Part shown: piece by piece, positions 496 to 63,907 of the stretch
Numbering within the stretch: the first letter of the stretch is position 1
Layout of the letters: every line of letters begins with the position of its first letter
Source of the DNA: Oscillospiraceae bacterium
GTDB taxonomy: Bacteria > Bacillota > Clostridia > Oscillospirales > Ruminococcaceae
NCBI GenBank assembly: GCA_009786985.1
Contig: WRGW01000112.1
Location: 2,330 to 66,329 of the forward strand
Direction: 5' to 3'
Length of the DNA stretch: 64,000 nucleotides
Notes under the pieces: generated by a model
What the model saw: only the letters and a program-made list of their open reading frames with translations
What the model was told of the DNA's origin: nothing
Database searches by the model: none
Position numbers and translations under genes: made by a program

Positions 496-1116
496 TTACC
501 ATCCCCCTTCTAATTTTTGGACAAACTCCCGCAACGCTTTACCACGATGGCTGACAGCGTTTTTATCATCGGCTGACATTTCGGCGAATGACTGATGTTG
601 TTGGCTCTGCCAATGTACAGGAGACTTAAAGCCTTGCCTGCTGTCGAGATACAAGAATACGGGGTCATACCCAAATCCATTTTCGCCTTGTTCAGAAAAA
701 GCAATCTGCCCCTCACACTCTCCATGAACGAATTTTGTATGCTCCTTGCCATCTCCATTGACATAACATATGCAGCAAACAAATCGAGCTGTGCGTTTAT
801 CGGCTGGGACATCTTTCATACGTTCTAACAGCCAAGCATTATCATAATTCGCCGAATACACCCCTGGTTCGCCGTCAAGTGCGTCAACGCAAAGCCCCGA
901 ATCGTCCGAAATTACTGGAAGCCCAGTTTTTTTATAAATCGCCCTTGCTTTGAGGGCAGCATTTTTTTCAAAAGTATCGCCAGTTTCGGCAACACTTATA
1001 CAAACCCCAGCTTCGGATTGTGAAATCGCTTCATAACCAAGAGGGGCTAATAGTTGCTTAAATTCACGAACTTTTCCAACGTTGTTAGACGCTATAATGA
1101 TTTTCATTTTATTCAT
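496..1116 (-). CDS. rdgB: Non-canonical purine NTP pyrophosphatase (Ham1 family), carrying a ~16-aa repeat-derived insertion
   Basis: ASNNxGK, DDSGL, GFGYDPVF and SHRGKAL motifs. Confidence 0.95.
   Translation of the reverse strand: MNKMKIIIASNNVGKVREFKQLLAPLGYEAISQSEAGVCISVAETGDTFEKNAALKARAIYKKTGLPVISDDSGLCVDALDGEPGVYSANYDNAWLLERMKDVPADKRTARFVCCICYVNGDGKEHTKFVHGECEGQIAFSEQGENGFGYDPVFLYLDSRQGFKSPVHWQSQQHQSFAEMSADDKNAVSHRGKALREFVQKLEGGW
594..642 (-). repeat. Copy of hairpin repeat module inserted in frame in rdgB
   Basis: Minus strand AGCAGGCAAGGCTTTAAGTCTCCTGTACATTGGCAGAGCCAACAACA aligns ungapped to 50614-50660 AGCAGGCAAGACTTCAAGTTGCCTGCTCGTTGGCAGAGCCAACGACA. Confidence 0.85.
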
Positions 1117-37376: not shown

Positions 37377-37379
37377 GGT

Positions 37380-49504: not shown

Positions 49505-50383
49505 ATGGCAATCAGTAGTATGACCGGATTCGGACGGGAACAATGTGTATTAAACGGCAGGGAAATCACAGTAGAAATTCGTGCGGTGAATCATCGTTTT
49601 CATGAGTTTACGGCAAGAATCCCGCGACAATACAGCAAACTTGAAGAGCTGATTAAATCTAAAATTTCCACAAAAGTCAAACGCGGAAAAGTAGAGGTAA
49701 GTGTCATAATTCACAATATCGAAGGGCGTGAAGCGACTGTTATTCTTAACAAAGAACTTGTGAATGCCTATTTATCCGAATTGCGTTTGGCACAAAGTGA
49801 ACTTGGGCTTTTAAGTGATTTTAATTTTTCGGATGTGTTCAAAATCCCTGATGCGTTTAATGTCATTAAAAAAGAAGTTGATGAAGACGAAATATCAAAA
49901 GATGTCGGCGAAGTTCTAGATGTAGCCCTGAGCAATTTCTTGTCTATGCGTAAAAACGAGGGTGCGAAAATGCAGGCAGATATTCAATCAAAATTGGCTA
50001 AAATTTCGGTAGCAACAAACCAAATCGACAAAGCTGTCCCGCAAATCGCAGAAAAACATCGACAGAAACTTACAGCAAAAATCACCGAATTTGTAGGTTC
50101 AGGTGTAGATGAACAAAGAATTATACTTGAAGCGGCAATTTTTGCCGAAAAATCCGCCGTTGATGAAGAGATTGTTAGGTTAAAAAGTCACATCTCACAA
50201 GTTCGGGAAATCTTAGAAAATGAAGATGTAGTAGGTAGAAAACTGGATTTTATCGTTCAAGAAATAAACCGTGAAATCAATACAATAGGCTCAAAATCGC
50301 ATGAAGTTGACATTACACGTATAGTAGTTGACTTAAAAAGCGAACTCGAAAAAATCAGAGAACAGATTCAAAACATTGAGTAA
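49505..50383 (+). CDS. yicC: YicC/YloC family endoribonuclease
   Basis: SMTGFGR, EIRAVNHRF, EEIVRL.SH, GRKLDF..QE.NRE.NTIGSK, REQIQNIE. Confidence 0.93.
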   Translation: MAISSMTGFGREQCVLNGREITVEIRAVNHRFHEFTARIPRQYSKLEELIKSKISTKVKRGKVEVSVIIHNIEGREATVILNKELVNAYLSELRLAQSELGLLSDFNFSDVFKIPDAFNVIKKEVDEDEISKDVGEVLDVALSNFLSMRKNEGAKMQADIQSKLAKISVATNQIDKAVPQIAEKHRQKLTAKITEFVGSGVDEQRIILEAAIFAEKSAVDEEIVRLKSHISQVREILENEDVVGRKLDFIVQEINREINTIGSKSHEVDITRIVVDLKSELEKIREQIQNIE

Positions 50384-50460
50384 AAGCTGTCTCTAAAAAT
50401 ACAAATTAGAGTGTAAATTCAAATTTTTATTTAAAAAAACAAAAAAAATCCCATAAACGC

Positions 50461-50489
50461 TTGACAAATCGTTTGAAATAGTTTATAAT
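50461..50489 (+). promoter_or_regulatory. SigA-type promoter of the rpmH operon
   Basis: TTGACA-17 nt-TATAAT. Confidence 0.85.
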
Positions 50490-50505
50490 TTATTAGTTAG
50501 TGAAT

Positions 50506-50726
50506 TTATTGAAAGTTCGGGCGTAATATCCTGGCGAGTTTGGGTGTAATACCCCCGACGCTTTGCGTTGATTATCTCGGGCGAAGTGAGAGAGGTGCAT
50601 GGCGAGTCTGTCAAGCAGGCAAGACTTCAAGTTGCCTGCTCGTTGGCAGAGCCAACGACACTTCAACTCTCGCGCTTTGCAAAGCCTGCTCTTCGAGAGC
50701 TTTGCCATGCGGTGTTACCGAACATT
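50506..50726 (+). repeat. Cassette repeat copy 3 (longest, 221 bp, nested modules)
   Basis: TTATTGAAAGTTCGGG ... TGCGGTGTTACCGAACATT with a second left end at 50536 and an inserted hairpin module at about 50622-50680. Confidence 0.9.
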
Positions 50727-50791
50727 TGAGGGATATTACAGCGTGGATAATAAATAACAAGGTTTATGAAAACTGATGGAGGTATAGAAAA

Positions 50792-50926
50792 ATGAAAAGA
50801 ACTTATCAACCGAAAAAACGCCAAAGACAAAAAGAACACGGCTTCAGAAAGAGAATGTCTACAAGAAGTGGGCGTAAAATCCTTTCTGCGAGAAGAGCTA
50901 AAGGGCGTAGAAAATTATCTTACTAA
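50792..50926 (+). CDS. rpmH: 50S ribosomal protein L34
   Basis: Own translation [44 protein letters not shown]; GGAGG RBS. Confidence 0.97.
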
Positions 50927-51429
50927 TGGAGTTAATGGCGACAACACCGTTCAAACCAATAACACCAAGCATTAGTTACAAAAAGAAATACGTTTCGATT
51001 CGTAAAGCAAGTGACTTTCAGCGAATGTATAAATTAAGCAAGCAAGGTGGCATTAGAACTCAAGGCAAACAAAATAATCTCTATGCTGATAGCGGGAGTT
51101 TTGTTAGCTTTGCGTTTGTTTGCTATTACCGGAAAACCACTTTTGAGCAAAATCGGTTCGGGGTAGTTGCAAGCAAAAAGGTCGGAAACGCAATTAAACG
51201 CAATCGTGCAAAACGACTGATTCGCGAGGGGTTTCGACTTTACGAACCACGATTACGTGAGTTCACTGACAAAACATATGATTTTGTATTCGTAGCACGT
51301 GCTAAAACACCTGAATTAAACTCAACCCAAGTAGGCAAATTGATTGGAGACTTGCTTTGCAAAATCGCTCAAAATAGCAATCTTCCAAAAGGTCGCCACT
51401 CTGGTAACGAGCGGAGCGGACAAGCATGA
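50926..51429 (+). CDS. rnpA: Ribonuclease P protein component (unusually long)
   Basis: [33 protein letters not shown]; position after rpmH. Confidence 0.93.
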
Positions 51430-51653
51430 AATACGTATTTATCGGTTTGATTAAATTATATCAAGCTACCATATCTAAAATAACACCACCCGTATGCCGA
51501 TTCACTCCGAGCTGCTCTGCATACGCTGTAACAGCTTTCGGGCGTTTCGGCGTGTTCAAGGGTGGCTATTTGACTTTGCGGAGAATTTTGCGATGTCACC
51601 CGTTTAGTGAGGGTGGATATGACCCTGTTGAACAGTCGACAGTTGACGGTTGA
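51426..51653 (+). CDS. yidD: Membrane protein insertion efficiency factor
   Basis: [23 protein letters not shown]. Confidence 0.95.
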
Positions 51654-51688
51654 CTGTTTCCGACTATATTTACGTTACGGAGAATTTA

Positions 51689-53119
51689 ATGGATTTTTTG
51701 TTTAATCTACCTTTGATTACCCCTGCTTTAGGGTTTATCATGCGACTTTGTTATTCTTTGGTAGGGAATGTAGGAGTTGCGATTATTGTGTTCACAATTA
51801 TTATAAGGATTGTGATGTTCCCGCTTTCTGTGAAACAGCAGAAAAATACCTCTAAAACGCAGATTTTTGCACCACGTCTTCGCGAAATTCAACAGAAATA
51901 TCGTGGAAATACACAGATGATGCAAGCGGAAATGGCAAAGTTGCAAAAAGAGGGGTATAATCCTGCAAGTGGTTGTCTTCCGACTCTCGCTACTATGCTT
52001 ATACTCTTCGGGGTACTTGGTGTAGTTTATAGCCCGTTGACTTATTTTGAGAGAATCGATGATACACAACTTGAAGTAATTGAAAGCATAGCTATTCGAG
52101 TTGACGCTGAGGGAATTTATGCCGAACTAATCGACCAGCATATTATGGCTAACCCAGTAACTCTTGATGAACCGAGTGATGAAGATAGTGACACTGACAC
52201 CTCCGAAACTGTTCGTGAACCTATACTTTTGGAATACGAAGATATAGACGAAGAGGTGCGTGGAGAACTTCGTGCAACAGCAGCAAGCCGTGCTCAAATA
52301 CCTTTTAACCGCATTCAAAGTCAGCTTGAAATTATGCGTGTCTTCCGCGAAAATCCTGAAGCGTTTTCGGGGATTGATTCTGAATCACGTCGTAAGATGG
52401 AAATCATTCAAAGACGAATTGTTTTCGCTGGAATCGATTTTAGCGAAACACCTACACGTTCATGGCCTACGATTATGATTCCACTCTTGTCGTTTATATT
52501 TGCGGCAGGACAGACTATAATCATGCAATACGTTCAGAAAAAAACATCACCCGAAGCTGTTAAACAGATGGGTATGATGCGATATATGATGTATGGTATG
52601 CCGATTATGTCGCTTGTAATTGCGTTCCAGTTTCCAGCTGGTGCAGGTTTTTACTGGGCGATTTCTGGAGCAGTCGGAATTATTCAAAGTTTAGTGATTT
52701 TCAAAATCTGGCCACCAGACAAATTGCGTGAAGAGGTTATGGCGGCTCTGGACAGCAAGGGTGGCGACAATGTTGTTGTAATCGAAAAACATGATGGACG
52801 CAAAGTTGAGAAAAAAGCCTCACAAATGTCTGGAAAAGAAGAGAAAGAATATTATCGCAAAAAGCTAGAAGAAGCTCGAAAAGCTGATTTGAAAAAATAC
52901 GGTGAAGTCGGCGAGTTACCACCAGAAGTGAGTGAAAAGCTAGAAAAACTCGACCAATCAGAAGAACCTGAAAGTTTTGAAACGCCAATGATTGAAGTTG
53001 ATTCTGCAGTTTCTGTTGAATCACAAAATTCAGATGCCACACTAATCACCTGTAAAGACTGTGGAGCTACTAACGATAACGAACGCCAGAAATGTCGCTC
53101 ATGTGGCAAAAAACTGTAA
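51689..53119 (+). CDS. yidC: YidC/Oxa1 membrane protein insertase with large loop and C-terminal zinc ribbon
   Basis: PL..KQQK, GCLP, FPAG.GFYW; operon position; likely start ATG 51689. Confidence 0.9.
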   Translation: MDFLFNLPLITPALGFIMRLCYSLVGNVGVAIIVFTIIIRIVMFPLSVKQQKNTSKTQIFAPRLREIQQKYRGNTQMMQAEMAKLQKEGYNPASGCLPTLATMLILFGVLGVVYSPLTYFERIDDTQLEVIESIAIRVDAEGIYAELIDQHIMANPVTLDEPSDEDSDTDTSETVREPILLEYEDIDEEVRGELRATAASRAQIPFNRIQSQLEIMRVFRENPEAFSGIDSESRRKMEIIQRRIVFAGIDFSETPTRSWPTIMIPLLSFIFAAGQTIIMQYVQKKTSPEAVKQMGMMRYMMYGMPIMSLVIAFQFPAGAGFYWAISGAVGIIQSLVIFKIWPPDKLREEVMAALDSKGGDNVVVIEKHDGRKVEKKASQMSGKEEKEYYRKKLEEARKADLKKYGEVGELPPEVSEKLEKLDQSEEPESFETPMIEVDSAVSVESQNSDATLITCKDCGATNDNERQKCRSCGKKL

Positions 53120-53153
53120 ATCTGACAACATTAGAAAGGAAGCTCATACCGAT

Positions 53154-54233
53154 ATGGAGAAAAACGAAATATTTACTGCCAAAAAAATTGATGAAGCCAA
53201 AGAAATGGCGGCAAACGCATTTGATGTGCTTATATCAGACATTGATTTTGAAATAATCGAACAGCCTAAAAAAGGATTGTTTGGTGCGAAGGGTGATTTT
53301 AGGGTTCGAGCGATTTACACTCCAAAACAAACCTCTGCTAACAGTGGAATTAGTGTAACGTCGCAAACTTCGCAATCGGCTAAATTACCATCTAAGTTAA
53401 AAGCTACACCGATTACTGACCCTGATGTTCTCTCAAAATTTGCACCGACTATTGGTTATATCAAAAAAATTTTAGATGAGATTACAACTAAAAGCTATGA
53501 AGTCACTGTCAAAAAATCAGGGGATAATAACGTAATCGACATTACAGGTGATTCTTTAGGTATGGTAATTGGTAGACGTGGTGAAACGCTTGACGCACTA
53601 CAATACCTCGCAATACTCGCCAATAATCGTATTGGTGAAGAGAATGAACGCCTCCGTATCGTGGTTGACTGTAACGGCTATCGTGAAAAACGTACCGAAA
53701 CCCTCGAAGCGTTGGCGGCGAGAACTGCTGCTAAAGTAAAGTTTAAGGGTAGAAGAATTACCTTAGAACCTATGAATCCTTACGAACGCCGTGTAATCCA
53801 TAGCAAAGTTTCTGAACTCGAAGGCGTGTACAGCAATTCCATTGGTGAAGAACCGTATCGTAAAGTCGTTATTTCAGCGGAACTCCCTAAAAAACGCGCT
53901 ACTTCTGTTGGAGGTTCTGGTGGGCGTACGGCTGACGGAAAAAATGGTAACAATCGAGATAATCGTGATAGAAATCGCCGTGATTACGGACATTCGACTA
54001 GAAACGATAATGACGTAATTCCACAAAGAATCCCTGGAGAAGTTTCTAACGCAGTTCATAGTCGCTCGTACAAAAAATCGACTGGTTTTTCCACGTCGTT
54101 TGAACGAGAATATCAGCGTTCGTTGACCGAAGAAAAATCGCAAAATCTGCCTGAAGGACAGGTTTCTGAATTTTCACAAGATACGATTGATGCTGAAAAA
54201 AGTGCTACTTTGTACGGAAAGATTGAGCTGTGA
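53154..54233 (+). CDS. jag: Jag/EloR RNA-binding protein
   Basis: KKGLFG, IGRRGETLDALQYL, LEPMNPYERRVIH, GEEPYRKVVI. Confidence 0.93.
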   Translation: MEKNEIFTAKKIDEAKEMAANAFDVLISDIDFEIIEQPKKGLFGAKGDFRVRAIYTPKQTSANSGISVTSQTSQSAKLPSKLKATPITDPDVLSKFAPTIGYIKKILDEITTKSYEVTVKKSGDNNVIDITGDSLGMVIGRRGETLDALQYLAILANNRIGEENERLRIVVDCNGYREKRTETLEALAARTAAKVKFKGRRITLEPMNPYERRVIHSKVSELEGVYSNSIGEEPYRKVVISAELPKKRATSVGGSGGRTADGKNGNNRDNRDRNRRDYGHSTRNDNDVIPQRIPGEVSNAVHSRSYKKSTGFSTSFEREYQRSLTEEKSQNLPEGQVSEFSQDTIDAEKSATLYGKIEL

Positions 54234-54269
54234 ATTTAGAGAACAATCCAAAATTCGAGAGGTGAGTGT

Positions 54270-54498
54270 ATGGCAAAAATCATTACTTTTTTTCAACCAT
54301 AAGGGCAGGGTTGGTAAAGATACGCTCAATTATAATGTTGCATGGGGGTTTAGTATGCAAAATCAAAAAGTTTTGATGCTTGATGCAAAAATATTAAATA
54401 ATCACAAGCTAAATACAGACCACTATAGACAAAAAATTTTAGATTTTAAAACAGAGTACAATAAAATCATTGATGGTCTGATTATTAAATGCTCATAG
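54270..54498 (+). pseudogene. Degraded ParA/Soj-like ATPase fragment
   Basis: GAGGTG RBS, MAKIITFF then frameshift in a T7 run; shifted frame NHKGRVGKDT (decayed Walker A) ..KVLMLDA, then a premature end. Confidence 0.7.
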
Positions 54499-54507
54499 GT
54501 GAAAGCT

Positions 54508-55023
54508 ATGCCTAAACATTCAACAGTGTTCGGTAACATCGCATGGCAAAGCTCTCAAAGAGCAGGTTTTGCTTGCCTGACAGAGTCACACCTGTCGCTC
54601 TCCCGCTTCGTGCGTGAGAACCGCCCTAAAAGGCGTGGTATTCCCCCCGAACTTTTAATAGAACCAGAAAAATCAAGCCCATGTGAAATAATAGAAAAGA
54701 AATCGCGTTTTATAGGATTTGCAAAGCGAGTAGCCACCGAAGAAGAGGCAAAGGCGTTCATTGAAAAAGTGCGTTTGGAGCATCGAAAATCTCGCCATAT
54801 TGCATTTGCTTATGTGCTTTCTAATACCGCTAAAACAAATGATGATGGTGAACCTAAAGGGACTGCGGGTCTTCCGATTTATAACACAATCATTCGGCGT
54901 GAATTACAGAATGTCGTGGTAGTAGTCGTGCGATATTTTGGTGGGATTTTGCTCGGAAAAGGTGGCTTGATTCGTGCGTATGGCAGGGCGGCAGGTTTGG
55001 CACTTGAGCATTTGAGAGATTAA
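54508..55023 (+). CDS. yigZ: YigZ/IMPACT family protein with repeat-derived N-terminal insertion
   Basis: EKKSRFIG, DDGEPKGTAG, VVVVRYFGGILLGKGGLIRAY; AGGTGA RBS before ATG 54508. Confidence 0.88.
   Translation: MPKHSTVFGNIAWQSSQRAGFACLTESHLSLSRFVRENRPKRRGIPPELLIEPEKSSPCEIIEKKSRFIGFAKRVATEEEAKAFIEKVRLEHRKSRHIAFAYVLSNTAKTNDDGEPKGTAGLPIYNTIIRRELQNVVVVVVRYFGGILLGKGGLIRAYGRAAGLALEHLRD
54525..54660 (-). repeat. Cassette repeat copy 4, in frame inside yigZ
   Basis: Reverse complement TATTAAAAGTTCGGGG...GACTCTGTCAGGCAAGCAAAACCTGCTCTTTGAGAGCTTTGCCATGCGATGTTACCGAACACT aligns to copy 3. Confidence 0.9.
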
Positions 55024-55111
55024 GAACTTCTTGTTTTAATATTTGAATTGGATTTTTTTTCAAATTAATGTGATTATATTATACAAATCATTAACTTTTT
55101 TCAAAAAAGTA

Positions 55112-55205
55112 TTGACATTTACAAAAAGATATGATATAATAGCAAAGCAAGAGTGGAGCTATGCTTCGGCTTTTGCTTGACGAGTCTTAAAATTTATGAT
55201 ATAAT
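55112..55205 (+). promoter_or_regulatory. Tandem SigA-type promoters for tRNA-Gly
   Basis: TTGACA-17-TATAAT (55112-55140) and TTGACG-17-TATAAT (55177-55205). Confidence 0.75.
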
Positions 55206-55236
55206 AGTGTAGTTGAATTGCGAAAGTGATAAAACT

Positions 55237-55307
55237 GCGGGTGTAGTTCAATGGTAGAATCCCAGCCTTCCAAGCTGGTTGTGTGGGTTCGATCCCCATC
55301 ACCCGCT
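55237..55307 (+). tRNA. tRNA-Gly (TCC), CCA not encoded
   Basis: GCGGGTG acceptor pairs with CACCCGC; anticodon arm CCAGC-CTTCCAA-GCTGG; GGTTCGA T-loop. Confidence 0.96.
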
Positions 55308-55364
55308 TTAATATGAAAAAGTCCTCTTGTCTTTATATGGGAGAGAGGCAAGCAATCTTCTTTG

Positions 55365-55400
55365 AAAACGGTATGACCGAATGGGTCATACCGTTTTTTT
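55365..55400 (+). terminator. Intrinsic terminator after tRNA-Gly
   Basis: AAAACGGTATGACC / GGTCATACCGTTTT followed by T run. Confidence 0.85.
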
Positions 55401-55500
55401 GACTATAGCAGTTTAGTTGCTCTTATAGTCAATCAGTTTAATAATACTCGAGTATGGATTGTACTGTTAAAAGTAGACACAAAATAACACCTCAATTTAA

Positions 55501-55665
55501 AACCATCTGCTCTTTTTCGTTGGGCGACGAATTCAACCAATGGGCAATACCTCTCGTTTAATCGAAGTCCCTAATGGAGTTAGAACTGCTGGAGCACCTG
55601 TACAGATTTGGAACAGAGTCGCTGGCACCTCATGGCAATATTGGGAGTTTGTAAGAATAAACTGA
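55501..55665 (+). pseudogene. Remnant of a ricin-type beta-trefoil lectin repeat
   Basis: Own translation IQPMGNTSRLIEVPNGVRTAGAPVQIWNRVAGTSWQYWEFVRIN* (G..V..W.......Q.W pattern); stops upstream. Confidence 0.55.
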
Positions 55666-55853
55666 GAGCTGAAGGGGTCGTAGTGAAATTCTTACCCAAT
55701 TCGAAATCGTGCTTAATGCTTATATGATTATGCAGAGCCCTAATTGGTGTATTGGCACATATGCGCAACTGTCGCCACAGTACTGCCGTAATTTGAAAGA
55801 GTGATTGGGTATTATGAATTTGGTTATGCGGTTGGTCTCGCCTGAATTTTATT

Positions 55854-55895
55854 AGAAGCTGTGTTCATAGGGCTAAGCCTATGAACACAGCTTCT
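55854..55895. terminator. 18-bp perfect inverted repeat downstream of sigK
   Basis: AGAAGCTGTGTTCATAGG / CCTATGAACACAGCTTCT. Confidence 0.6.
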
Positions 55896-55943
55896 TACTA
55901 CTTTTTGAGGGATTATATGTCAACTATTAACAGTGCAATCCAT

Positions 55944-56657
55944 TTAACGATGGGTGAATTTTTCTCGCAATTTTTCGAGTGCTTTTTTTTCAATTCGTGA
56001 CACGTAGCTTCGTGATATACCCAAACATTTAGCCACTTCATGTTGTGTCAAAGGTTTTTCAACTTTAGGTTTGCCACCATTATTATAGAGAAGCCCATAA
56101 CGCTTACAAATTATTTGTCGTTCACGAGGATTAAGGACTTCGTTTATGTATTTATACAACATTTTTAAGTCGGCTCTTAATTCGGTAACATCTTCTATGT
56201 TCACTGGGTCTTGAAAAAAATCAATAAGGCTTATTTGATTTCCTTCTTTATCTGGAGTTGCAGTTCCATTCAGAGGGAGTTCTTTTTGTTGGTTTTTGAT
56301 TTTGCGAAAATACATTTTAATTTGATTGTCAATACATTTTCCAGCATAAGTCGAAAAATTCACATTTTTATCCGAACTAAAAGTTTCGACCGCACGAATT
56401 AAACCTATACTCCCGATTGAAATAAGGTCATCGGTATCTTTGTGAGAATAATAATGTTTGTTGACTATGTAGGCAACTAAACGGAGATTATGCTCGATTA
56501 ATTTATTTCGTGCCGAAGTATCGCCTTCTATTATTTTTGCAATACACTCGTTCTCTTCTTCTTTTGACAATTTTGGCGGAAAGGTGCTTCCACCTTCTAA
56601 ATGGAGTGCTAAATAAGCTAAGTTCTGAAACGCTAACTGAATTAATGTGGTAAACAT
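55944..56657 (-). CDS. sigK: Sporulation sigma factor pro-sigma-K, uninterrupted
   Basis: Hydrophobic pro-sequence, FP.KLS..EE, LIEHNLRLVA, DDLISIGSIGLI, TQ.EVA..LGISRSYVSRIEKKAL. Confidence 0.88.
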   Translation of the reverse strand: MFTTLIQLAFQNLAYLALHLEGGSTFPPKLSKEEENECIAKIIEGDTSARNKLIEHNLRLVAYIVNKHYYSHKDTDDLISIGSIGLIRAVETFSSDKNVNFSTYAGKCIDNQIKMYFRKIKNQQKELPLNGTATPDKEGNQISLIDFFQDPVNIEDVTELRADLKMLYKYINEVLNPRERQIICKRYGLLYNNGGKPKVEKPLTQHEVAKCLGISRSYVSRIEKKALEKLREKFTHR

Positions 56658-56703
56658 AATTACACCATACCTTTTCTTGATTTGCTCAAAAATTTATAGA
56701 AAT

Positions 56704-56835
56704 TTATTGAAAGTTCGGGTATATAGCAGTTTGACCTGCGGTGTTATAACCGTTGTTTCTGTTGTCTGTTATCAGCAGACGAGAAACAGGTACTTTTCGA
56801 GCAATACTATGCCGAACTTTAAGGGTATTTCTAAA
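56704..56835 (+). repeat. Cassette repeat copy 5 with embedded TGTTTC-GTCTG hairpin module
   Basis: TTATTGAAAGTTCGGGT...TGCGGTGTTA, then 56753-56803 module, then CCGAACTTTAAGGGTATTT. Confidence 0.8.
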
Positions 56836-57023
56836 GTATATGCGGTGTAAGTTTGTCTTGTTACAAGGGTATGTTGAATAATTGCTTGTTGTTTGATTAC
56901 GTTCCAGAAATTTTCGTGCAAACTTTGTGTTTTAGAGAGTATTTTTTAGTTATACTTAAACAGCCTTTAAGCAAAAATTATTTTGCGAAAACGCTTGTAT
57001 TTTGCTGTAAAATCTGCTATAAT

Positions 57024-57475
57024 TATGAGGATATAATTTATGATTTACCGGCAAACGCAAAAATACAACCAAAACAAGGCGACTTGCTCGTTTCAAAAGT
57101 AAGACCATATAGAGGTGCTGTTACGGTAATTAGTGAAAACATAACCGATTTAGTCGTTAGTGGTGCGTTTACTGTGCTACGTTCAAAGAATGATTATCCC
57201 GTTGAGGTGTTAGCTGTCATTTTTCGTTCAAACATTTATCGGATTGGTTTATGAAATGGAATGTCGGTAGTTCATACCCTGTTATTCGTGATGATGATGT
57301 ACTGAATATACCTATCCCGATTCTTGATAAGAAAACTCAACAACAAATCGCCGATTTAGTCCAAAGTTCGTTTGCTTTACGGCGTGAGTCGGAGCGGTTG
57401 CTTGAAACGGCAAAACGGGCGGTTGAGGTTGCGATTGAGGTGGGAGAAGAAAAAGCGATTAATGTTTTAAGTTAA
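57024..57475 (+). pseudogene. 3' fragment of a Type I restriction specificity subunit (HsdS-like), frameshifted
   Basis: DLPANAKI..GDLLVSKVRPYRG, SGAFTVLR; frameshift near 57243; then KWNVGSSYPVI, IPIPIL....QQQIADLV; no 5' part. Confidence 0.75.
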
Positions 57476-57506
57476 GCTACTATACCGAACATTTCAGGGT
57501 ATTTTT

Positions 57507-57561
57507 AAAACACATAACTATAGGGAGTGGCAAATCGCCACTCCCTATAGTTATGTGTTTT
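57507..57561. terminator. 25-bp perfect hairpin between convergent genes
   Basis: AAAACACATAACTATAGGGAGTGGC-AAATC-GCCACTCCCTATAGTTATGTGTTTT. Confidence 0.7.
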
Positions 57562-57571
57562 TGTTGACGAC

Positions 57572-58312
57572 TTAAACGATTTTAGCAATTAGCTGGATTG
57601 TATTGTAATACTTTCCACCTTCTGCTTTCATCATGTCTAAATCCCATTTATGCTCTTCGTTGTTTGGGTCGCGACTGTTAAGATACTCTTCCCAAGCGAT
57701 GTTGTGGCAAGTTTGTTCGCTGATGTTTATGATTTCTACGCCTTTGGCTTTGCTCCACAACTCACGCCACCAGTCAATACCACGGACGTATTTTGCCACT
57801 TCTGGAACGTTCCAGAATGGTTGCATTTCCAGCGGAACGTTTTCTCCAAAATCAGCTTTTAATCCTGGGAACGAAACTGCGATATAACCGCCTTTTTTTA
57901 CATAAGTCGCAATGTTCGTGAGTGAATCTTCATGAATTCCGAACATATTATACGCACCTACTGAAAAGGCAACATCAAAATACCCTTTCGCAAACGGCAT
58001 AGATTGTGTTACGTCAAGCGTCATCGGAATGATTTTGTCTGCAATTCCTATAGTTTTGAAACGCTCGTGATTTTCTGTCGGGTCTGCGTATAAATCAGTA
58101 GCGAAGACATTAGCATCATGTGCTTTAACTAAATACAAAGCCGATAAACCAGTGCCACACCCTAAATCGAGTATTTTTGTATTCCCCGTAATTTCCAGGT
58201 GCGATGCTAATTCCTCAGACTGTCGTATACCGTTTGGACCCCACATTAGTTCATTTAACAATGCAAGGTTGTTTTCGTCGGCGACGAACTTGTTTGAAAA
58301 TGTGTTACACAT
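57572..58312 (-). CDS. Class I SAM-dependent methyltransferase
   Basis: LMWGPN, ILDLGCGTGLS, FD..FSVGAY, KGGYIAV. Confidence 0.88.
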   Translation of the reverse strand: MCNTFSNKFVADENNLALLNELMWGPNGIRQSEELASHLEITGNTKILDLGCGTGLSALYLVKAHDANVFATDLYADPTENHERFKTIGIADKIIPMTLDVTQSMPFAKGYFDVAFSVGAYNMFGIHEDSLTNIATYVKKGGYIAVSFPGLKADFGENVPLEMQPFWNVPEVAKYVRGIDWWRELWSKAKGVEIINISEQTCHNIAWEEYLNSRDPNNEEHKWDLDMMKAEGGKYYNTIQLIAKIV

Positions 58313-58477
58313 TATTTTTTTCCTCCGTTAAAGTTAAGTTTGCCTTGAAAGGGCTTAAATAACTGTGGGAGGTTTTAACACAAGATTATTTTATGCAAAC
58401 CTCCCGGTTTGCTACTATCTGTGTTTTATTGTTTTTACGCATAAAAATCTCCTTTCCTCTTTATTATACTTTAAGAT

Positions 58478-58611
58478 TCGTCAAGCCGACTGCCGTCAAG
58501 CAAAGCTCGCCGCACCACGGCTCTTGTTTTACCTGCGTCAAACGGCTCAAAACCTGAACCGCCATTTGCCGCTTCGTCAGGCTCCCTGCTCACCGGCAGA
58601 GCCGGTGACAC
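58478..58611. repeat. Mosaic of repeat modules immediately 3' of the tRNA
   Basis: 58586-58611 CTGCTCACCGGCAGAGCCGGTGACAC covaries with 50636-50661; 58478-58529 resembles 27342-27375 and 55143-55183 on the opposite strand. Confidence 0.7.
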
Positions 58612-58616
58612 TTACC

Positions 58617-58690
58617 TGCACCATCAGGGACTCGAACCCCGGACCTACCGGTTATGAGCCGGTAGCTCTAACCAACTGAGCTAATGGTGC
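58617..58690 (-). tRNA. tRNA with CAT anticodon, probably tRNA-Ile2 (lysidine type) rather than Met
   Basis: GCACCAT/ATGGTGC acceptor, ACCGG-CTCATAA-CCGGT arm, GGTTCGAG; C4:G69 and CTCATAA loop resemble Firmicute Ile2. Confidence 0.9.
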
Positions 58691-58700
58691 AATACAAAAG

Positions 58701-58800
58701 TTATTGAAAGTTCGGGTGTAATACCTCCGACGCTCTGCGTCGGTTCTCTCGAGCGAAGCGAGAGGGGTGCAGAGCTTGCCCTGCGGTGTTACCAAACATT
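58701..58800 (+). repeat. Cassette repeat copy 6 (100 bp)
   Basis: TTATTGAAAGTTCGGGTGTAATACC...TGCGGTGTTACCAAACATT. Confidence 0.9.
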
Positions 58801-59027
58801 GTAACATAAAAAACTGAATACGTCAAGCAAAATAAAGCCAAAGCACAGCTTTGTCTTTGTTTTGCTCTTGCTATTATAACACATTTTTTTGAAAATTGCA
58901 AGCAAAATTTTGAATTTTGAAAAAAAAATTAAAAATTTTGCAACCTTTCTATATCGAGAAGCGTTTTATTAGTATTAAGTCACCGACAAAGTCATGGTTT
59001 AATAATTGTACGAAAGGTAAAAAATTC

Positions 59028-60425
59028 ATGAAAAATACTAAAGGTTCTAAAAAAACACTCAAAATTATGGCACTGGCGTTAATTACGATGCTCCTGCTCA
59101 CATTGGTGGCTTGTAATAGCGATGATATAAACCATGTGGTTGAAAACGTTCCTGAACGTGGACGCACTAGTGAAAACGGTGAGGCTGATAATAATTCAGT
59201 GCTTGAAGGGCATTCTGCTGATTACGCACTTGAAGGCGATTCCGTTGATGACATAGTAGATATAGTAGTGGGGGGCGTAGATTTAGGGGAAGTGGGCGAT
59301 GTTGATAGCGATATGAGAATGAGCGACGATGAACATCATTTTGTGGAACCAATCCCTCCTGCTGGTGGCGAAACACAATACCCTGATATAGAGCTTTTGC
59401 CAATCGAACCGGGTCAACTTACAGCTGGTGAGTGGAACGATAACGCTAATTTGGATTTGTGGAACTCTCTTTTCCGCAATGCACCGTGGCGAAATTTCCC
59501 GCAGACGTGGGGGCTTTCGACTGCGAATCGTATTATAGTGAATGTCACAAATGGCGATTCACCAATACGTAATGCGCGTGTCGAGCTTTTTGGTAGCAAT
59601 GATGACCCACTTTGGGTTTCACGCACTGACCATAATGGGAGAGCGTTTGTGTTCGGTGACTCTGACCCACAATCACAAACTGGGGCTTCTCACATAATTG
59701 TGACTATGGGTTCGATTGAAGAGCGTGTGAATGTCGGGAGTTCTGATACTATAACAGTCGATTTAAGTGGTGCAACTTCTCCAACCCGAGCGCTTGATTT
59801 GATGTTTGTAATCGACACCACTGGTTCAATGGGAGATGAATTGCGTTATTTGCAAGCCGAACTTGAAGATGTGATTGATTCTGTTCGTAGCCAAAATTCT
59901 AGCTTGCCGATTAGGCTTTCGATGAACTTCTACCGTGACCACGGTGATGATTATGTAGTTCTCCCTCATTCGTTTACCGAAGATATTCCTGAAGCTATTC
60001 GTATTCTTGGTAGGCAGAGTGCGGCTGGTGGCGGTGACTGGCCTGAAGCTGTAGCCGAAGCACTCGAAAACGCCGTGTTTGAACACGATTGGCACGAAGA
60101 TTCGATAAAGTTGATGTTTTTAGTTCTCGACGCACCAGGTCACGAAAACCCAGAGTCGATTGCAACTATAAACAAAGCCGTGCGTGAAGCAAGCGAAAAA
60201 GGAATACGTATAATCCCTATTCAAGCGAGTGGGAATATGGGTTTGTATGATACAATCACCGAATTTAAAATGCGTGCATTCAGTATTTTGACTGGTGGAA
60301 CTTATACCTTCCTTACCAGTGATTCAGGCATAGGTAATCCACACAACGAACCTACCATCGGTGCATTTCAAGTTGAAATGTTAAATGAAATGTTGGTGCG
60401 GATTATTAACGAATATATTTCATGA
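59028..60425 (+). CDS. Lipoprotein with von Willebrand factor A domain
   Basis: Lipobox LVAC, DLMFVIDTTGSM MIDAS motif, GGGDWPEAV, LDAPGH. Confidence 0.88.
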   Translation: MKNTKGSKKTLKIMALALITMLLLTLVACNSDDINHVVENVPERGRTSENGEADNNSVLEGHSADYALEGDSVDDIVDIVVGGVDLGEVGDVDSDMRMSDDEHHFVEPIPPAGGETQYPDIELLPIEPGQLTAGEWNDNANLDLWNSLFRNAPWRNFPQTWGLSTANRIIVNVTNGDSPIRNARVELFGSNDDPLWVSRTDHNGRAFVFGDSDPQSQTGASHIIVTMGSIEERVNVGSSDTITVDLSGATSPTRALDLMFVIDTTGSMGDELRYLQAELEDVIDSVRSQNSSLPIRLSMNFYRDHGDDYVVLPHSFTEDIPEAIRILGRQSAAGGGDWPEAVAEALENAVFEHDWHEDSIKLMFLVLDAPGHENPESIATINKAVREASEKGIRIIPIQASGNMGLYDTITEFKMRAFSILTGGTYTFLTSDSGIGNPHNEPTIGAFQVEMLNEMLVRIINEYIS

Positions 60426-60440
60426 AATTTGAAGCAAAAC

Positions 60441-60552
60441 AAGAGCGCGTCCTGCAAAGGCGGCTTTGCCGTCTTGAAGGGATTAGCTTGAAGAAGTGCT
60501 TCGTCGAGAGTTCGCCCACTACAGACGAGCAAAGCCCGTATGTAGTGGGCAT
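60441..60552 (+). repeat. Repeat module plus hairpin between convergent genes
   Basis: GAGCGCGTCCTGCAAAGGCGGCTTTGCCGTCTTGAAGGGATTAGCT matches 63908-63954; GCCCACTACA/TGTAGTGGGC hairpin follows. Confidence 0.75.
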
Positions 60553-60565
60553 ACTTTTGTTTTGC

Positions 60566-61942
60566 TTACATCAACTCAAACCTTAATCGCCCGATTCGCC
60601 TGCCCTCCATCGTTAGAACGGTGATTTTAAAAAGTTCACTCACTGTAATTTCACCTGCTTCAGGGATTTTCCCGAAAAGTTCAAATACCCAGCCACCCAC
60701 GGTATTACGTTCTGATTTGATTATGAATTGTGGCGATTTTTCTGATTCATCAGATTTGAAGGCCTTGTCTGCACGGTCGGCGAAAAAACGATTAAAGTCA
60801 ATTATACTAAGTTCGCTCTGAACTTCAAACACACCATCAACGTCTGGCTTAAATTTGATTGGTTGAGTTTCTTCATCTCCCTCATCCCAAATTTCGCCGA
60901 CGAGTTCTTCTAAGATATCCTCAAGTGTGACAATTCCAGCAGTTCCGCCATACTGGTCTAACACGACCGCAAGGTGGGATTTTTGACGCTGCATAAGTTT
61001 GAGTGCCTCGGACAATTTCATCAAAGCGGGGAGTTTTATTATATCGTCTTGAACTAAATCTCTCACTAAATTTGGTGGTTCTGGATTTTCTGAAAGCTCT
61101 ACGTTTTTAGTGGTTTCGGTATTTTCAGAATGAGCCGATTTTTCTGATTGGGTAGATAACAGGCGTTTCATAAACTCCTTATTGCTAATCATACCGACGA
61201 TTTTGTCGAGGCTTTCTTCATATACGGGTAGGCGTGAATAGCCCTCTTTCAAAAAAACGTCACGCACTTTCTCAACCGAATCGTTAATCGAAACGGCGAC
61301 TATATCAACACGTGGAGTTTGGATTTTCTCGACTGTCGTTTCGTCAAATACTAACGCAGAACGCACCAAATCACTCTCGTGTTCTTCTAACACACCCTCG
61401 TCTTCGATTTCGTCGATAATCTGTAATAGTTCTTCTTCAGTAACGCTGACTTGTGCTTCTTCCTTAGCGAAAATTTTTGTCACCCCACGTTGTAGTAAGA
61501 GCATGACGGACGAAATTGGCATAAACAGCCACATCACAAAAGTGAGGACTCCTGCCGCAGTAAGCACAAACCAGTCAGCGTGTTCGCGTGCGAGGGTTTT
61601 AGGCAAAATGTCAGAAAAAATAATCAAAGCCACTGTGAGCACTGCCGATGAAACGGCGACAACAAACCCCTCGTCCCAATCAGCGGTGCGTGCTAAATCA
61701 ATTGCAAGCAAAGTCGCTACTGATGCCACGATAATTGTGAGGACATTTACACCGATTAAAAGGGTAGCAAGCATTCGGTCATAGTTTTCAAGTAGTCTTA
61801 ACACTTTTTTCGCAGAAACAGAACCGTTTTCGGCACGATGTTTAATCCGAATACGGTTAGTTCCTGTTATTGCGGTTTCGCTCGATGCGAAAAATCCAGA
61901 TAATAAAATCAAGATTATAATTACAGCGATTTGCCAAGCCAT
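60566..61942 (-). CDS. HlyC/CorC family (CNNM + CBS) transporter-associated protein
   Basis: SGFFASSETA, TPRVDI, YSRLPVY, DQYGGTAGIVTLEDILEELVGEIWDE. Confidence 0.93.
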   Translation of the reverse strand: MAWQIAVIIILILLSGFFASSETAITGTNRIRIKHRAENGSVSAKKVLRLLENYDRMLATLLIGVNVLTIIVASVATLLAIDLARTADWDEGFVVAVSSAVLTVALIIFSDILPKTLAREHADWFVLTAAGVLTFVMWLFMPISSVMLLLQRGVTKIFAKEEAQVSVTEEELLQIIDEIEDEGVLEEHESDLVRSALVFDETTVEKIQTPRVDIVAVSINDSVEKVRDVFLKEGYSRLPVYEESLDKIVGMISNKEFMKRLLSTQSEKSAHSENTETTKNVELSENPEPPNLVRDLVQDDIIKLPALMKLSEALKLMQRQKSHLAVVLDQYGGTAGIVTLEDILEELVGEIWDEGDEETQPIKFKPDVDGVFEVQSELSIIDFNRFFADRADKAFKSDESEKSPQFIIKSERNTVGGWVFELFGKIPEAGEITVSELFKITVLTMEGRRIGRLRFELM

Positions 61943-62740
61943 TTAGCTTTTACTCCTATCTGATACAATCAGCTTACGAACAGCTTCGACTGCACATTTA
62001 ATCGCACGACTATTGTCTTTACATACACTATCTGGAAGCCCAGCTTTTGAGCGTTCAACATTCCAGAGTGCGGTTAAAACAGCACCTGCACGAACTTCTC
62101 TCACGAGTGCGACTGAAAACAAAGTTGCCGCCTCCATTTCAGAAGCAAGACATCCCGCTTTTAGATACGCATTCCATCTATTATGAAGATGTGGTGCAAT
62201 CGGCATGGTTTCGGGTGCAACTTCGCCATAAAACGAATCTTTGCTCTGAACCACACCCACGTGGTAAGCGTTGCCAGCGTTCGTGGTAGAGCTTTGTTTG
62301 GCAGCCTCGGCTAAAGCTGAAACGACCTCAAAATCAGCCACTGCTGGATAGCAAGATGGTAGATATTCAGCACTCGCCCCATCACCACGAATTGCGGCTG
62401 AAGCTATGACTAAATCTCCGCCATGAACTTTTAGATTGATTCCCCCAGAAGTCCCAACTCTCACAAAAGTATGACAACCACATTTGACTAGCTCTTCAAT
62501 CGCAATCGCAGCTGACGGACCGCCGATTCCTGTCGAAACCACGCTTACAGGAGTTCCATCTAAACTCCCAGTATAAGTCACGTATTCTCGATTAGTTGCT
62601 ATGTGTTTGGGGTCATCTAAGTATTCGGCGATTTTTGAAACTCTCCCAGGGTCTCCCGGTAAAATCACGTATTTACCGACTTGGTTTTTATCAGCAGAAA
62701 TCTGTAGATGATACTGAAAATTCGGGTCTAACAAAGCCAT
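61943..62740 (-). CDS. udp: Uridine phosphorylase
   Basis: LPGDPGRV, STGIGGPSAAIA.EEL, RVGTSGG, SKDSFYG, SEMEAA; likely start ATG 62740. Confidence 0.92.
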   Translation of the reverse strand: MALLDPNFQYHLQISADKNQVGKYVILPGDPGRVSKIAEYLDDPKHIATNREYVTYTGSLDGTPVSVVSTGIGGPSAAIAIEELVKCGCHTFVRVGTSGGINLKVHGGDLVIASAAIRGDGASAEYLPSCYPAVADFEVVSALAEAAKQSSTTNAGNAYHVGVVQSKDSFYGEVAPETMPIAPHLHNRWNAYLKAGCLASEMEAATLFSVALVREVRAGAVLTALWNVERSKAGLPDSVCKDNSRAIKCAVEAVRKLIVSDRSKS

Positions 62741-62766
62741 ATTTTTATTCTCTTTTCTTTTTCGAT

Positions 62767-62843
62767 TTATTGAAAGTTTGGGTGCATAGTCGGCTATATC
62801 AAGCAGGCAAAGCCTGCACATCGAGAGCTTTGTTACCAAACAT
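62767..62843 (+). repeat. Cassette repeat copy 7
   Basis: TTATTGAAAGTTTGGGTG...TCAAGCAGGCAAAGCCTGC..TCGAGAGCTTTGTTACCAAACAT. Confidence 0.88.
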
Positions 62844-62845
62844 CT

Positions 62846-63418
62846 TCAAGTTTTTTTAGAACTTTGAGATTTTGGAGTTTTTTTCTTGCGTCGTTTTGGC
62901 TTGTTAAAGCTATCGAGTACACTAGGTCTTTGTTTAGGCGAATCGTCAGATATGTTCATTTTATAAAGGCTTTGGCTAGGGTCATTTGGATTTCTGTATC
63001 CATCATTTCCAAGAATACTCTCAGCGGGCGCGTTGTGTTTTTGACGAGCTTTTTCTGCCATATCAATCCCCGCCATGGTAATGACTGTGAGAGTCGCTAT
63101 CAGTAACGGGAGATAAAAACCTCCGTTAAACACCATATTTTCTGTGATGTAGTCTAAAAAACCTAAGTGCAGAACTAATAGCAAGATTGCCCCACCAATC
63201 GACAAACCAGCAGCAATCCGATACATTTTTAGTTTCACGAAAACACAAGGCGTGATATATCCAGCGACCGTCGCAAACAACCACAAAATCGGGATATAGA
63301 CTGGTAAAGCCTCACCAATTTCAGAAAAAAGCAACATACTCAAAGGGAACACCACTCCAATTACAAGCCCCCATATTGCTACAATTATAAACATTATAAT
63401 TCTCAAAAATAATTTCAT
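62846..63418 (-). CDS. Hypothetical membrane protein (about 4 TM, basic tail)
   Basis: Hydrophobic segments; AAAGGGGA RBS. Confidence 0.75.
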   Translation of the reverse strand: MKLFLRIIMFIIVAIWGLVIGVVFPLSMLLFSEIGEALPVYIPILWLFATVAGYITPCVFVKLKMYRIAAGLSIGGAILLLVLHLGFLDYITENMVFNGGFYLPLLIATLTVITMAGIDMAEKARQKHNAPAESILGNDGYRNPNDPSQSLYKMNISDDSPKQRPSVLDSFNKPKRRKKKTPKSQSSKKT

Positions 63419-63890: not shown

Positions 63891-63907
63891 ATATATTTGC
63901 AAGACGA

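What the first reader, a model, noticed from the sequence alone, without database searches (positions are those of the whole stretch)
54525..54660. Complete cassette repeat inserted in frame at the N-terminus of YigZ
Seen: RBS AGGTGA and ATG 54508 give MPKHST, then ~45 codons (VFGNIAWQSSQRAGFACLTESHLSLSRFVRENRPKRRGIPPELLI) that are the reverse complement of a full cassette with both ends, then EPEKSSPCEIIEKKSRFIG. There is no stop and no alternative ATG with an RBS downstream. Established: YigZ proteins start about 10-15 residues before EKKSRF. Inference: a second independent in-frame insertion in 64 kb, so the repeat family is a source of new peptide sequence.
Basis: partly seen in the sequence, partly recalled or inferred. 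Interest (0 to 1): 0.8.

Follow-up and report, generated by a model that had tools for sequence, protein, structure and literature searches.

The report
Mobile repeat read through into YigZ
A 138-base copy of a small mobile repeat lies, with no stop codon, inside the only reading frame that can still make this termite-gut bacterium's YigZ protein, so the protein probably carries a 57-residue floppy head that no relative has; this kind of event is already known from Rickettsia and other bacteria.

Summary
Window 54525-54662 (minus orientation) is a real but diverged copy (79% to its class consensus) of a hairpin-rich repeat family with inverted ends. The family has about 200 loci, roughly 1% of this 1.8 Mb Oscillospiraceae genome from termite gut. 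The copy is 138 nt (46 codons) and has no stop in the frame that runs from AGGTGA-N5-ATG (54508) into a complete short-form YigZ/UPF0029 domain.

Here that Met is absent (CCA TGT GAA), and the only nearby ATG (54681) is out of frame and followed at once by TGA. The extension is therefore 57 residues, and the upstream ATG is the only canonical way to make the domain.

Three termite-gut metagenomes carry the identical sequence, one at 291x, so this is not an assembly error. The domain keeps every invariant residue. AlphaFold2 gives the extension low confidence.

The open frame by itself is weak evidence, because that frame is open in half of all copies. No empty site, RNA or protein data exist.

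Best reading (0.6): translated N-terminal extension. Rivals: fresh pseudogene (0.22), non-canonical downstream start (0.08). At least six other genes run into repeats. It is a new member of a known kind (like RPE, BOX and ERIC).

The parts
54187..54498 (+). ParA-like P-loop fragment ORF (103 aa) with a degenerate Walker A (KGRVGKDT). Probably a pseudogene remnant. It ends at TAG 54496-54498 and is in the same frame as the YigZ ORF.
   Evidence: Pfam AAA_31 E=2.6e-6 covers only profile positions 4-59 of 177. Matches in relatives are weak and limited to the P-loop region. TAG is an ordinary stop in this genome.
54497..54502 (+). Shine-Dalgarno AGGTGA, 5 nt before ATG 54508.
   Evidence: Sequence. 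AGGTGA-N4-7-ATG occurs 83 times in the genome against 27-48 for permuted hexamers. 43% of these head ORFs of at least 80 aa, against 20% for all ATGs.
54508..55023 (+). The 171-aa ORF: MPKHST, then the repeat-coded residues 7-51, then EPEKSSPC, then the YigZ/UPF0029 domain, with stop TAA 55021-55023.
   Evidence: The identical protein is the only 171-aa member among 7833 homologues.
54525..54662 (-). Complete, diverged copy (138 nt, 46 codons) of the modular inverted-end repeat family (131-nt core class). Read on the + strand it encodes VFGNIAWQSS...PPELLI.
   Evidence: I4; 79% to the class consensus.
54681..54686 (+). Out-of-frame ATG followed at once by TGA, at the place where homologues have their start codon. 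In frame this reads CCA TGT GAA (P-C-E).
   Evidence: Homologue DNA reads ATG TGC GAG (L021) and ATG CAG TGT GAA (L023). Loss of one TG from ATGTGTGAA would give the sequence seen; this is an inference.
54685..55020 (+). Short-form YigZ (UPF0029 / IMPACT-N) domain, residues E60-D171, intact.
   Evidence: Pfam PF01205 E=5.6e-35, residues 64-165, profile positions 1-106 of 107. All 39 invariant columns of a 43-sequence alignment are kept. pLDDT is mostly 85-96.
50505..50726 (+). Largest family copy in the window (composite, 222 nt). It lies in the rpmH leader between the promoter and the RBS, which is the usual non-coding position and serves as a comparison.
596..642 (-). Internal repeat module translated in frame inside RdgB (...YLDSRQGFKSPVHWQSQQHQSFAEM...).
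   Evidence: 47 nt are 83% complementary to 50614-50660 (I5). There is a 13-residue gap in E. coli RdgB (1k7k) opposite this segment.

Best explanation
A non-autonomous, hairpin-rich repeat with inverted ends (MITE/BOX-like) forms codons 7-51 of the present yigZ reading frame. Ribosomes bind the AGGTGA site, start at ATG 54508, read through the repeat (which has no stop in this frame) and continue into an intact single-domain YigZ. The product is a normal UPF0029 fold with a 57-residue, probably disordered, N-terminal tail that no relative has.

Shown:
- The repeat's identity and its limits.
- The open frame and the SD.
- The absence of the clade's own start codon and of any other canonical start.
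- The intact domain.
- That the sequence is correct.

Inferred:
- That the frame is translated and the product still works.
- The history. Either the element inserted in frame into a start region that had already moved upstream, or it sat in the 5' UTR or at a deletion junction next to the ParA remnant and became coding when the old ATG went out of frame (possibly by loss of one TG).
For: - The ORF is open from 54508 to 55023.
- The SD AGGTGA has a 5-nt spacer, and this hexamer is enriched before ATGs and before long ORFs in this genome.
- No in-frame ATG, GTG or TTG lies between the repeat and the domain, and ATG 54681 is out of frame and followed by TGA.
- All of about 120 best homologues are 112-142 aa and nearly all start M-x-EIIEKKSRF, a Met this gene lacks. 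Without the upstream start no domain can be made.
- The domain keeps all 39 invariant columns, with only conservative changes at near-invariant ones (Y71F, K160R), and a full-length Pfam match.
- Independent Logan contigs from three termite-gut metagenomes, one at 291x, are identical across ATG, repeat and yigZ.
- AlphaFold2 leaves residues 1-58 at pLDDT 44-58 and the domain mostly at 85-96, so the tail need not disturb the fold.
- Other family copies that lie in leaders have the RBS downstream of the repeat, for example rpmH. Here the RBS is upstream and none is downstream.
- Other genes in the genome also run into repeats.
- From established knowledge: eukaryotic IMPACT carries an RWD domain N-terminal to this same domain, so N-terminal additions are compatible with the fold.
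Against: - There is no transcript, ribosome or peptide evidence, and no RNA runs exist.
- The frame used is intrinsically open in half of the family's copies, so openness is not a sign of selection.
- The window's YigZ has the longest terminal branch of 43 (0.71 against a median of 0.33). This could mean relaxed constraint.
- The neighbouring ParA-like gene is a remnant, so this region has been decaying.
- A weak terminator-like hairpin plus a T-run lies inside the repeat on the + strand (54551-54563).
- No promoter better than 9 of 12 matches lies upstream.
- No empty site or second strain is available to date the events.
Confidence: 0.6

Rival explanations
1. Fresh pseudogene. yigZ lost its own start (for example by a 2-nt TG slippage that put ATG 54681 out of frame) and is no longer made in useful amounts. 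The open frame through the repeat and the upstream SD-ATG are leftovers of the neighbouring decayed region.
For: - The conserved start Met is absent and ATG-TGA sits at its place.
- The repeat's frame is open by default in about half of the copies.
- An adjacent ParA-like pseudogene remnant lies in the same frame, separated by one TAG.
- This YigZ has the longest terminal branch in the tree.
- The genome is small (1.8 Mb), host-associated and rich in repeats.
Against: - 113 domain codons carry no stop or frameshift, and every invariant residue is retained, so any inactivation would have to be very recent.
- A good SD at ideal spacing in front of the first ATG of the frame is unlikely by chance.
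- Any ribosome that starts there must read into YigZ, because there is no stop.
Confidence: 0.22
2. The repeat is a 5' UTR element, and translation starts downstream of it at a non-canonical codon (for example ATA 54688 or 54691), giving a near-normal YigZ.
For: - ATA codons lie exactly where homologues begin (M-x-EIIEKK).
- Most family copies are in leaders.
- G006's yigZ appears to be leaderless or nearly so (TTGACA-17-TATGAT-6-ATG), so this gene family does not always rely on an SD.
Against: - There is no SD-like sequence in the 30 nt before these codons.
- ATA is a very poor initiator, and leaderless initiation normally needs AUG (established knowledge).
- No promoter is placed to give a transcript beginning at such a codon (and inspection).
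- The strong SD-ATG upstream would be left unexplained.
Confidence: 0.08
3. Translation starts inside the repeat at GTG 54526 or GTG 54610, so only part of the repeat is coding.
For: Both GTGs are in frame. In the family consensus the first of them is an ATG (AATGTTCGG, giving MFGNTAG...).
Against: Neither GTG has an SD-like sequence upstream. ATG 54508 with AGGTGA lies only 18 nt before the first of them.
Confidence: 0.07
4. Assembly artefact: a repeat copy wrongly joined to yigZ, or an indel error at the start codon.
For: The genome is a 112-contig metagenome bin, and repeats are common places for misjoins.
Against: An independent assembly (Logan) of the source run covers 54300-55050 in one contig at depth 291 with 0 differences. 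Two other samples give contigs with 0 differences over 54451-55050 and 54492-54930.
Confidence: 0.03

Closest known systems
Rickettsia palindromic elements (RPEs)
   Same: Both are short (about 100-150 bp) palindromic, non-autonomous repeats in a small host-associated genome. Many copies lie in frame inside unrelated housekeeping genes and add 30-50 residue segments judged compatible with the fold (review PMC10969869, citing Ogata et al.).
   Different: The host phylum is unrelated (Bacillota, Oscillospiraceae), and I have no evidence of sequence relationship. Here most copies are intergenic and only a handful are in ORFs. This copy is at the extreme N-terminus and is coupled to loss of the gene's own start codon. 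Nothing is known about its expression.
BOX elements of Streptococcus pneumoniae (boxA-boxB(n)-boxC)
   Same: Both have a modular build. This family has conserved end modules (TTTATTGAAAGTTCGGGTGTAATACC ... CTGCGGTGTTACCGAACATT) and a variable number of internal hairpin modules, giving size classes of about 47, 93 and 131 nt and composites up to about 220 nt. Both have on the order of 100-200 copies in a Firmicute genome, mostly in leaders and after genes. Large BOX elements also contain ORFs (PMC10969869).
   Different: No sequence similarity has been shown, and no Rfam family matched five copies at E<=1. The distribution is limited to this genome and one congener among 41 genomes searched.
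Bacterial MITEs such as Correia/CREE (Neisseria) and ERIC (Enterobacteria)
   Same: Imperfect terminal inverted repeats, small size, no transposase, high copy number, and occasional intragenic in-frame copies that make fusions (PMC10969869).
   Different: No clear target-site duplication was found; ATT is possible but cannot be told apart from conserved element ends. No cognate full-length IS was found in a quick search.
YigZ / IMPACT family (UPF0029, PF01205), short single-domain form
   Same: The host gene is a full-length match with all clade-invariant residues and the same about 113-residue domain as about 120 close homologues.
   Different: It carries a 57-residue N-terminal extension found in no other member, and it lacks the clade's start Met.

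Membership tests
MITE (miniature inverted-repeat transposable element) | Terminal inverted repeats | tested here: met
   The left end is AAAGTTCGGGTGTAATACC. The reverse complement of the right end is AATGTTCGGTAACACC. They share a GTTCGG core and TAAYACC in about 60 paired copies.
MITE (miniature inverted-repeat transposable element) | Small size, no transposase, many copies | tested here: met
   Sizes are 39-222 nt. There are about 200 loci totalling 17 kb, with 87 and 77 strict end matches.
MITE (miniature inverted-repeat transposable element) | Target-site duplication | tested here: inconclusive
   The only recurrent flank identity is ATT or TT, which lies inside positions conserved in all copies. 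No empty site is available for this copy.
MITE (miniature inverted-repeat transposable element) | Cognate autonomous IS with the same ends | tested here: inconclusive
   Only four end pairs lie 1-4 kb apart, and they look like neighbouring separate copies. The ORFs inside them were not examined.
Rickettsia palindromic elements | Sequence membership in RPE families 1-10 | not tested
   No RPE consensus was compared. The host is an Oscillospiraceae-like Firmicute, so only the mode of action is compared, not membership.
Rickettsia palindromic elements | In-frame presence inside unrelated protein genes | tested here: met
   YigZ N-terminus. RdgB internal. C-terminal tails of the NadD-HD, TylF-like and BsaWI-like proteins, and the N-terminal regions of the PBP5-like and transglutaminase-like proteins.
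BOX elements | Modular A-B(n)-C architecture | tested here: met
   The ends are the same in copies of about 47, 93 and 131 nt, which differ by whole internal hairpin modules.
BOX elements | boxA/boxB/boxC sequence | not tested
   No BOX consensus was at hand. The Rfam scan of five copies gave nothing at E<=1.
YigZ / UPF0029 (PF01205) | Full-length match above the Pfam gathering score | tested here: met
   120 bits against a cut-off of 27, profile positions 1-106 of 107.
YigZ / UPF0029 (PF01205) | Clade-invariant residues | tested here: met
   39 invariant columns are retained.

The most novel reading that the evidence does not exclude
The repeat rescued the gene. yigZ lost its own start codon, and the only reason it is still made is that a mobile repeat lying upstream happened to be stop-free in the right frame. 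That links the domain to a foreign SD-ATG left at the edge of a decayed ParA gene.

With RdgB, three C-terminal tails and two N-terminal (signal-peptide-region) cases, this genome would then be a Firmicute counterpart of the Rickettsia RPE phenomenon. In it, selfish hairpin repeats routinely become coding sequence and can act as bridges that re-wire translation starts.
Probability: 0.3. Interest if true: 0.6.

Novelty: new member of a known kind. Interest (0 to 1): 0.4.

Why it matters
In-frame capture of selfish repeats is one of the few ways bacteria gain entirely new peptide segments, and the best-documented case is still Rickettsia. A gut-symbiont Firmicute with about 1% of its genome in one modular repeat family, and at least seven genes whose frames run into repeats, would widen that picture. 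The yigZ case adds a twist: the repeat is not merely tolerated but is now the only link between a usable start codon and a conserved domain.

In practical terms, gene callers will report a 171-aa YigZ here. Annotators should know that 57 residues are repeat and leader sequence. The finding does not open a long-standing question, and the host gene has no known essential role.

Tried and rejected
- Assembly error: rejected. Three independent metagenome assemblies are identical, one at 291x.
- Stop-codon recoding that would fuse the ParA fragment to YigZ through TAG: rejected. TAG ends 188 of 956 long ORFs.
- Known RNA family: no Rfam hit on any of five copies at E<=1.
- Strong mRNA structure as a signal: the fold of 54490-54700 has z=-1.6, which is not significant.
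- Empty site:
  - The nearest GTDB relatives (G003 at 80%, G006 at 65%) and the nearest metagenome homologues (P0002, P0003, P0005, P0008) are not syntenic and have no repeat upstream.
  - G003's contig ends 126 nt upstream of the match.
  - Exact-pattern scans of metagenome contigs with the left flank and with the start of the domain found nothing.
- RNA-seq: no runs.
- Evidence for selection on the open frame: rejected as an argument. The same frame is open in 7 of 14 and 18 of 28 copies.
- In-situ decay as the cause of the copy's divergence: not supported, although this rests on inspecting the listed sequences rather than on a formal test. Its variant hairpin 1 resembles that of other copies (C40, C108), so it may descend from another subfamily.
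- Target-site duplication and an autonomous partner: inconclusive.
- A downstream promoter giving a leaderless mRNA: none with an ATG at the right place (and inspection).
- Homology of MPKHST or the tail of the ParA fragment to ParA: too weak to call.

Full report
**1. What is in the sequence**

The + strand at 54490-54700 reads as follows:
- TAG (54496-98), the stop of the upstream ORF.
- AGGTGA (54497-54502), a 5-nt spacer, then ATG (54508).
- CCT AAA CAT TCA ACA, then the repeat.
- GAA CCA GAA AAA TCA AGC CCA TGT GAA ATA ATA GAA AAG AAA TCG CGT TTT.

The frame is open from 54508 to TAA 55021-23, giving 171 aa. Pfam places UPF0029 (PF01205, E=5.6e-35) at residues 64-165, covering profile positions 1-106 of 107.

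**2. The repeat is real**

A 46-nt arm (54527-54572) is 93% complementary to 50679-50724. Searching the whole 1.81 Mb, 112-contig, 40% GC genome gave these results:
- About 60 cleanly paired copies with ends TTTATTGAAAGTTCGGGTGTAATACC ... CTGCGGTGTTACCGAACATT. Their size classes are about 47, 93 and 131 nt, and they differ by whole internal hairpin modules.
- About 200 BLAST-merged loci in all, totalling 17 kb.

The yigZ copy belongs to the 131-nt class, lies in minus orientation and has both ends. It is 79% identical to the class consensus, while other copies range from 78 to 98%. With the conserved TTTATTG it spans 54525-54662, which is 138 nt or 46 codons. If ATT is instead a target duplication, the inserted length is 132 nt. 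Both are multiples of three.

No Rfam family matches any of five copies in 50000-64000. Among 41 genomes searched (this one and 40 relatives), the family occurs only in this genome and one congener, G006, at 79-89% identity.

**3. What the relatives say about the start**

YigZ is present in 39 of the 41 genomes.
- The closest relatives have the short single-domain form: G003 MVFFMYEYIEKKSRF (120 aa), G006 MQEIIEKKSRF (117 aa) and G025 MHQLIVKKSRF (117 aa).
- Among 7833 homologues in the large protein collection, the best 120 are 112-142 aa and cover only 61-73% of the query.
- The only 171-aa entry is the window's own protein.
- Nearly all homologue N-termini read M-x-EIIEKKSRFIG, for example MCEIIEKK, MQCEIIEKK and MHEIIEKK.

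The window reads ...S-S-P-C-E-I-I-E-K-K. The Met is missing and CCA stands at its column. The only nearby ATG (54681-83) is one base out of frame and is followed by TGA.

Homologue DNA reads ATG TGC GAG (L021) and ATG CAG TGT GAA (L023). Loss of one TG from an ancestral ATGTGTGAA would give exactly the ATGTGAA seen here. That is an inference, not a demonstration.

The head is therefore 57 residues longer than the clade norm: 6 residues, then 45-46 from the repeat, then 7. The upstream ATG is the only canonical start that can deliver a whole domain. GTG 54526 and GTG 54610 are in frame but lie inside the repeat and lack an SD. The first in-frame GTG, ATG or TTG inside the domain (GTG about 54770) would remove the conserved KKSRF strand.

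**4. Is the sequence right?**

Yes. Logan contigs from three termite-gut metagenome runs carry it:
- X1 as one contig at depth 291 with 0 differences over 54300-55050.
- X2 with 0 differences over 54451-55050.
- X3 with 0 differences over 54492-54930.

No variant joints that would show a repeat-free allele were seen. No RNA run holds the stretch.

**5. Is the frame likely to be translated?**

For:
- AGGTGA pairs with the 3' end of 16S rRNA at ideal aligned spacing. In this genome AGGTGA-N4-7-ATG occurs 83 times, against 27-48 for permuted hexamers. It heads ORFs of at least 80 aa in 43% of cases, against 20% for all ATGs.
- There is no SD-like sequence after the repeat. By contrast, the rpmH leader copy has promoter, then repeat, then GGAGG-ATG.
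- The domain keeps all 39 invariant columns of a 43-sequence alignment.
- AlphaFold2 models the domain mostly at pLDDT 85-96 and leaves residues 1-58 at 44-58, so the head is a floppy tail.
- Eukaryotic IMPACT carries an RWD domain in front of the same domain (established knowledge), so N-terminal additions are tolerated by this fold.

Against, or neutral:
- The reading frame used (consensus MFGNTAGQSSRRAGFACLTDSPCTPLASLARTDAERRGITPELSI) is open in 7 of 14 copies of the 131-nt class and 18 of 28 of the 93-nt class. An open frame is therefore close to the default, not a sign of selection.
- The window's YigZ has the longest terminal branch of 43 sequences (0.71 against a median of 0.33; not flagged as an outlier).
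- The gene immediately upstream is a ParA-like remnant with a spoiled Walker A.
- A weak hairpin plus a T-run sits in the repeat.
- The predicted mRNA structure is not exceptional (z=-1.6).

**6. History**

Three orders of events fit the data:
- (a) The start had already moved to 54508, and the element then inserted in frame into codons 6/7.
- (b) The element sat in the 5' UTR, as most copies do. The old ATG then went out of frame, and the upstream SD-ATG, which happened to be in the open frame, took over.
- (c) A deletion, perhaps between two repeat copies, joined the edge of the decaying ParA region to yigZ and left one repeat at the junction.

The ParA fragment and the yigZ ORF share a frame, separated by one TAG. 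TAG is a normal stop here (188 of 956 long ORFs), so this is not a recoded fusion. No empty site exists in any collection searched, so the order cannot be decided. All three orders lead to the same present-day reading.

**7. The wider claim**

The repeat family, together with at least one other repeat module, does reach into coding sequence elsewhere:
- RdgB has a 47-nt module in frame, opposite a 13-residue gap in E. coli RdgB 1k7k.
- The C-terminal 30-37 residues of three proteins are repeat-coded: a NadD-HD protein (C112:1643-1743, just outside the window), a TylF-like methyltransferase (C80:1191) and a BsaWI-like protein (C91:10005).
- A PBP5-like carboxypeptidase (C2:1754-1911) and a transglutaminase-like protein (C68:4024-4181) have a shared repeat inside their N-terminal regions (for the PBP5-like protein, its signal-peptide region). 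All five are supported.

This count is a lower bound made without a gene caller.

**8. Comparison with what is known**

In-frame fusions made by small non-autonomous repeats are documented, most strikingly for Rickettsia palindromic elements, and also for large BOX elements, intragenic ERIC and some cyanobacterial MITEs (review PMC10969869). The modular end-plus-hairpin build resembles BOX. The inverted ends, size and copy number fit a MITE, though a target duplication and a parent IS were not established. The finding is therefore a new member of a known kind. One uncommon feature is that the repeat is now the obligatory bridge between the only usable start codon and a conserved domain whose own start is gone. 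No paper in the library combines MITE, N-terminal extension and start codon.

**9. Verdict**

| Reading | Confidence |
|---|---|
| Translated 57-residue N-terminal extension | 0.6 |
| Fresh pseudogene | 0.22 |
| Non-canonical downstream start | 0.08 |
| Start at a GTG inside the repeat | 0.07 |
| Assembly artefact | 0.03 |

Interest is 0.4.

Noticed in passing
window 596-642 (RdgB ORF 496-1116, minus strand): A 47-nt internal repeat module (83% complementary to 50614-50660) is translated in frame inside RdgB between GFGYDPVF and SFAEM. E. coli RdgB (1k7k) has a 13-residue gap opposite it.
   Followed up: yes
window 54187-54498: ParA-like P-loop fragment (103 aa, Walker A spoiled to KGRVGKDT) between jag and yigZ. 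It is in the same frame as the yigZ ORF, with a single TAG between them. The usual mnmE, mnmG, rsmG, parA and parB genes after jag are not here.
   Followed up: partly
L003 (G006:C162) about 1837-1875, minus strand: The congener's yigZ has TTGACA-17-TATGAT only 6 nt before its ATG, so it looks leaderless or nearly so. It has no repeat upstream, although G006 carries the same repeat family elsewhere.
   Followed up: no
genome C2:1754-1911 and C68:4024-4181 (outside the window); short relatives at C72:10230-10259 and C104:32566-32681: A different repeat module (peptide ...LRNE(T/I)I(T/A)FC(N/G)KVAKQFHCSK...YKTQAFCCGLI...) lies in frame in the N-terminal regions of a PBP5-like carboxypeptidase (inside its signal-peptide region) and a transglutaminase-like protein. 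A short piece (RNKTQAFCYGLI) is in a lipoprotein signal peptide.
   Followed up: partly
genome C112:1643-1743 (686-586 bases before the window start), C80:1191-1226, C91:10005-10105, C96:14857-14966: Repeat copies supply the last 30-37 residues of a NadD-HD fusion protein, a TylF-like methyltransferase and a BsaWI-like protein. One copy lies 32 codons before the end of a 1279-codon ORF.
   Followed up: partly
window 55112-55140 and 55177-55205 (also 10802, 23871, 42722): Near-identical strong promoter cassettes (CTTGAC-N17-TGATATAATAG) recur five times in the window. Two stand in tandem in front of tRNA-Gly(UCC) at 55237-55307.
   Followed up: no
window 37344-37401 and 63833-63890: A 58-nt inverted pair, 97% complementary and 26 kb apart, each containing a hairpin TTTAGGGCTGTTGA...TCAACAGCCCTAAA. 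This is another repeat family, or a shared terminator.
   Followed up: no
window 57507-57561: A perfect 25-bp palindrome with a 5-nt loop (AAAACACATAACTATAGGGAGTGGC / GCCACTCCCTATAGTTATGTGTTTT).
   Followed up: no
window 56710-56820: A family variant in which both ends are of the AAAGTTCGG type and the cargo is a different hairpin (TGTTTCTGTTGTCTG...CAGACGAGAAACA), which also occurs at 10616 and 10843.
   Followed up: no
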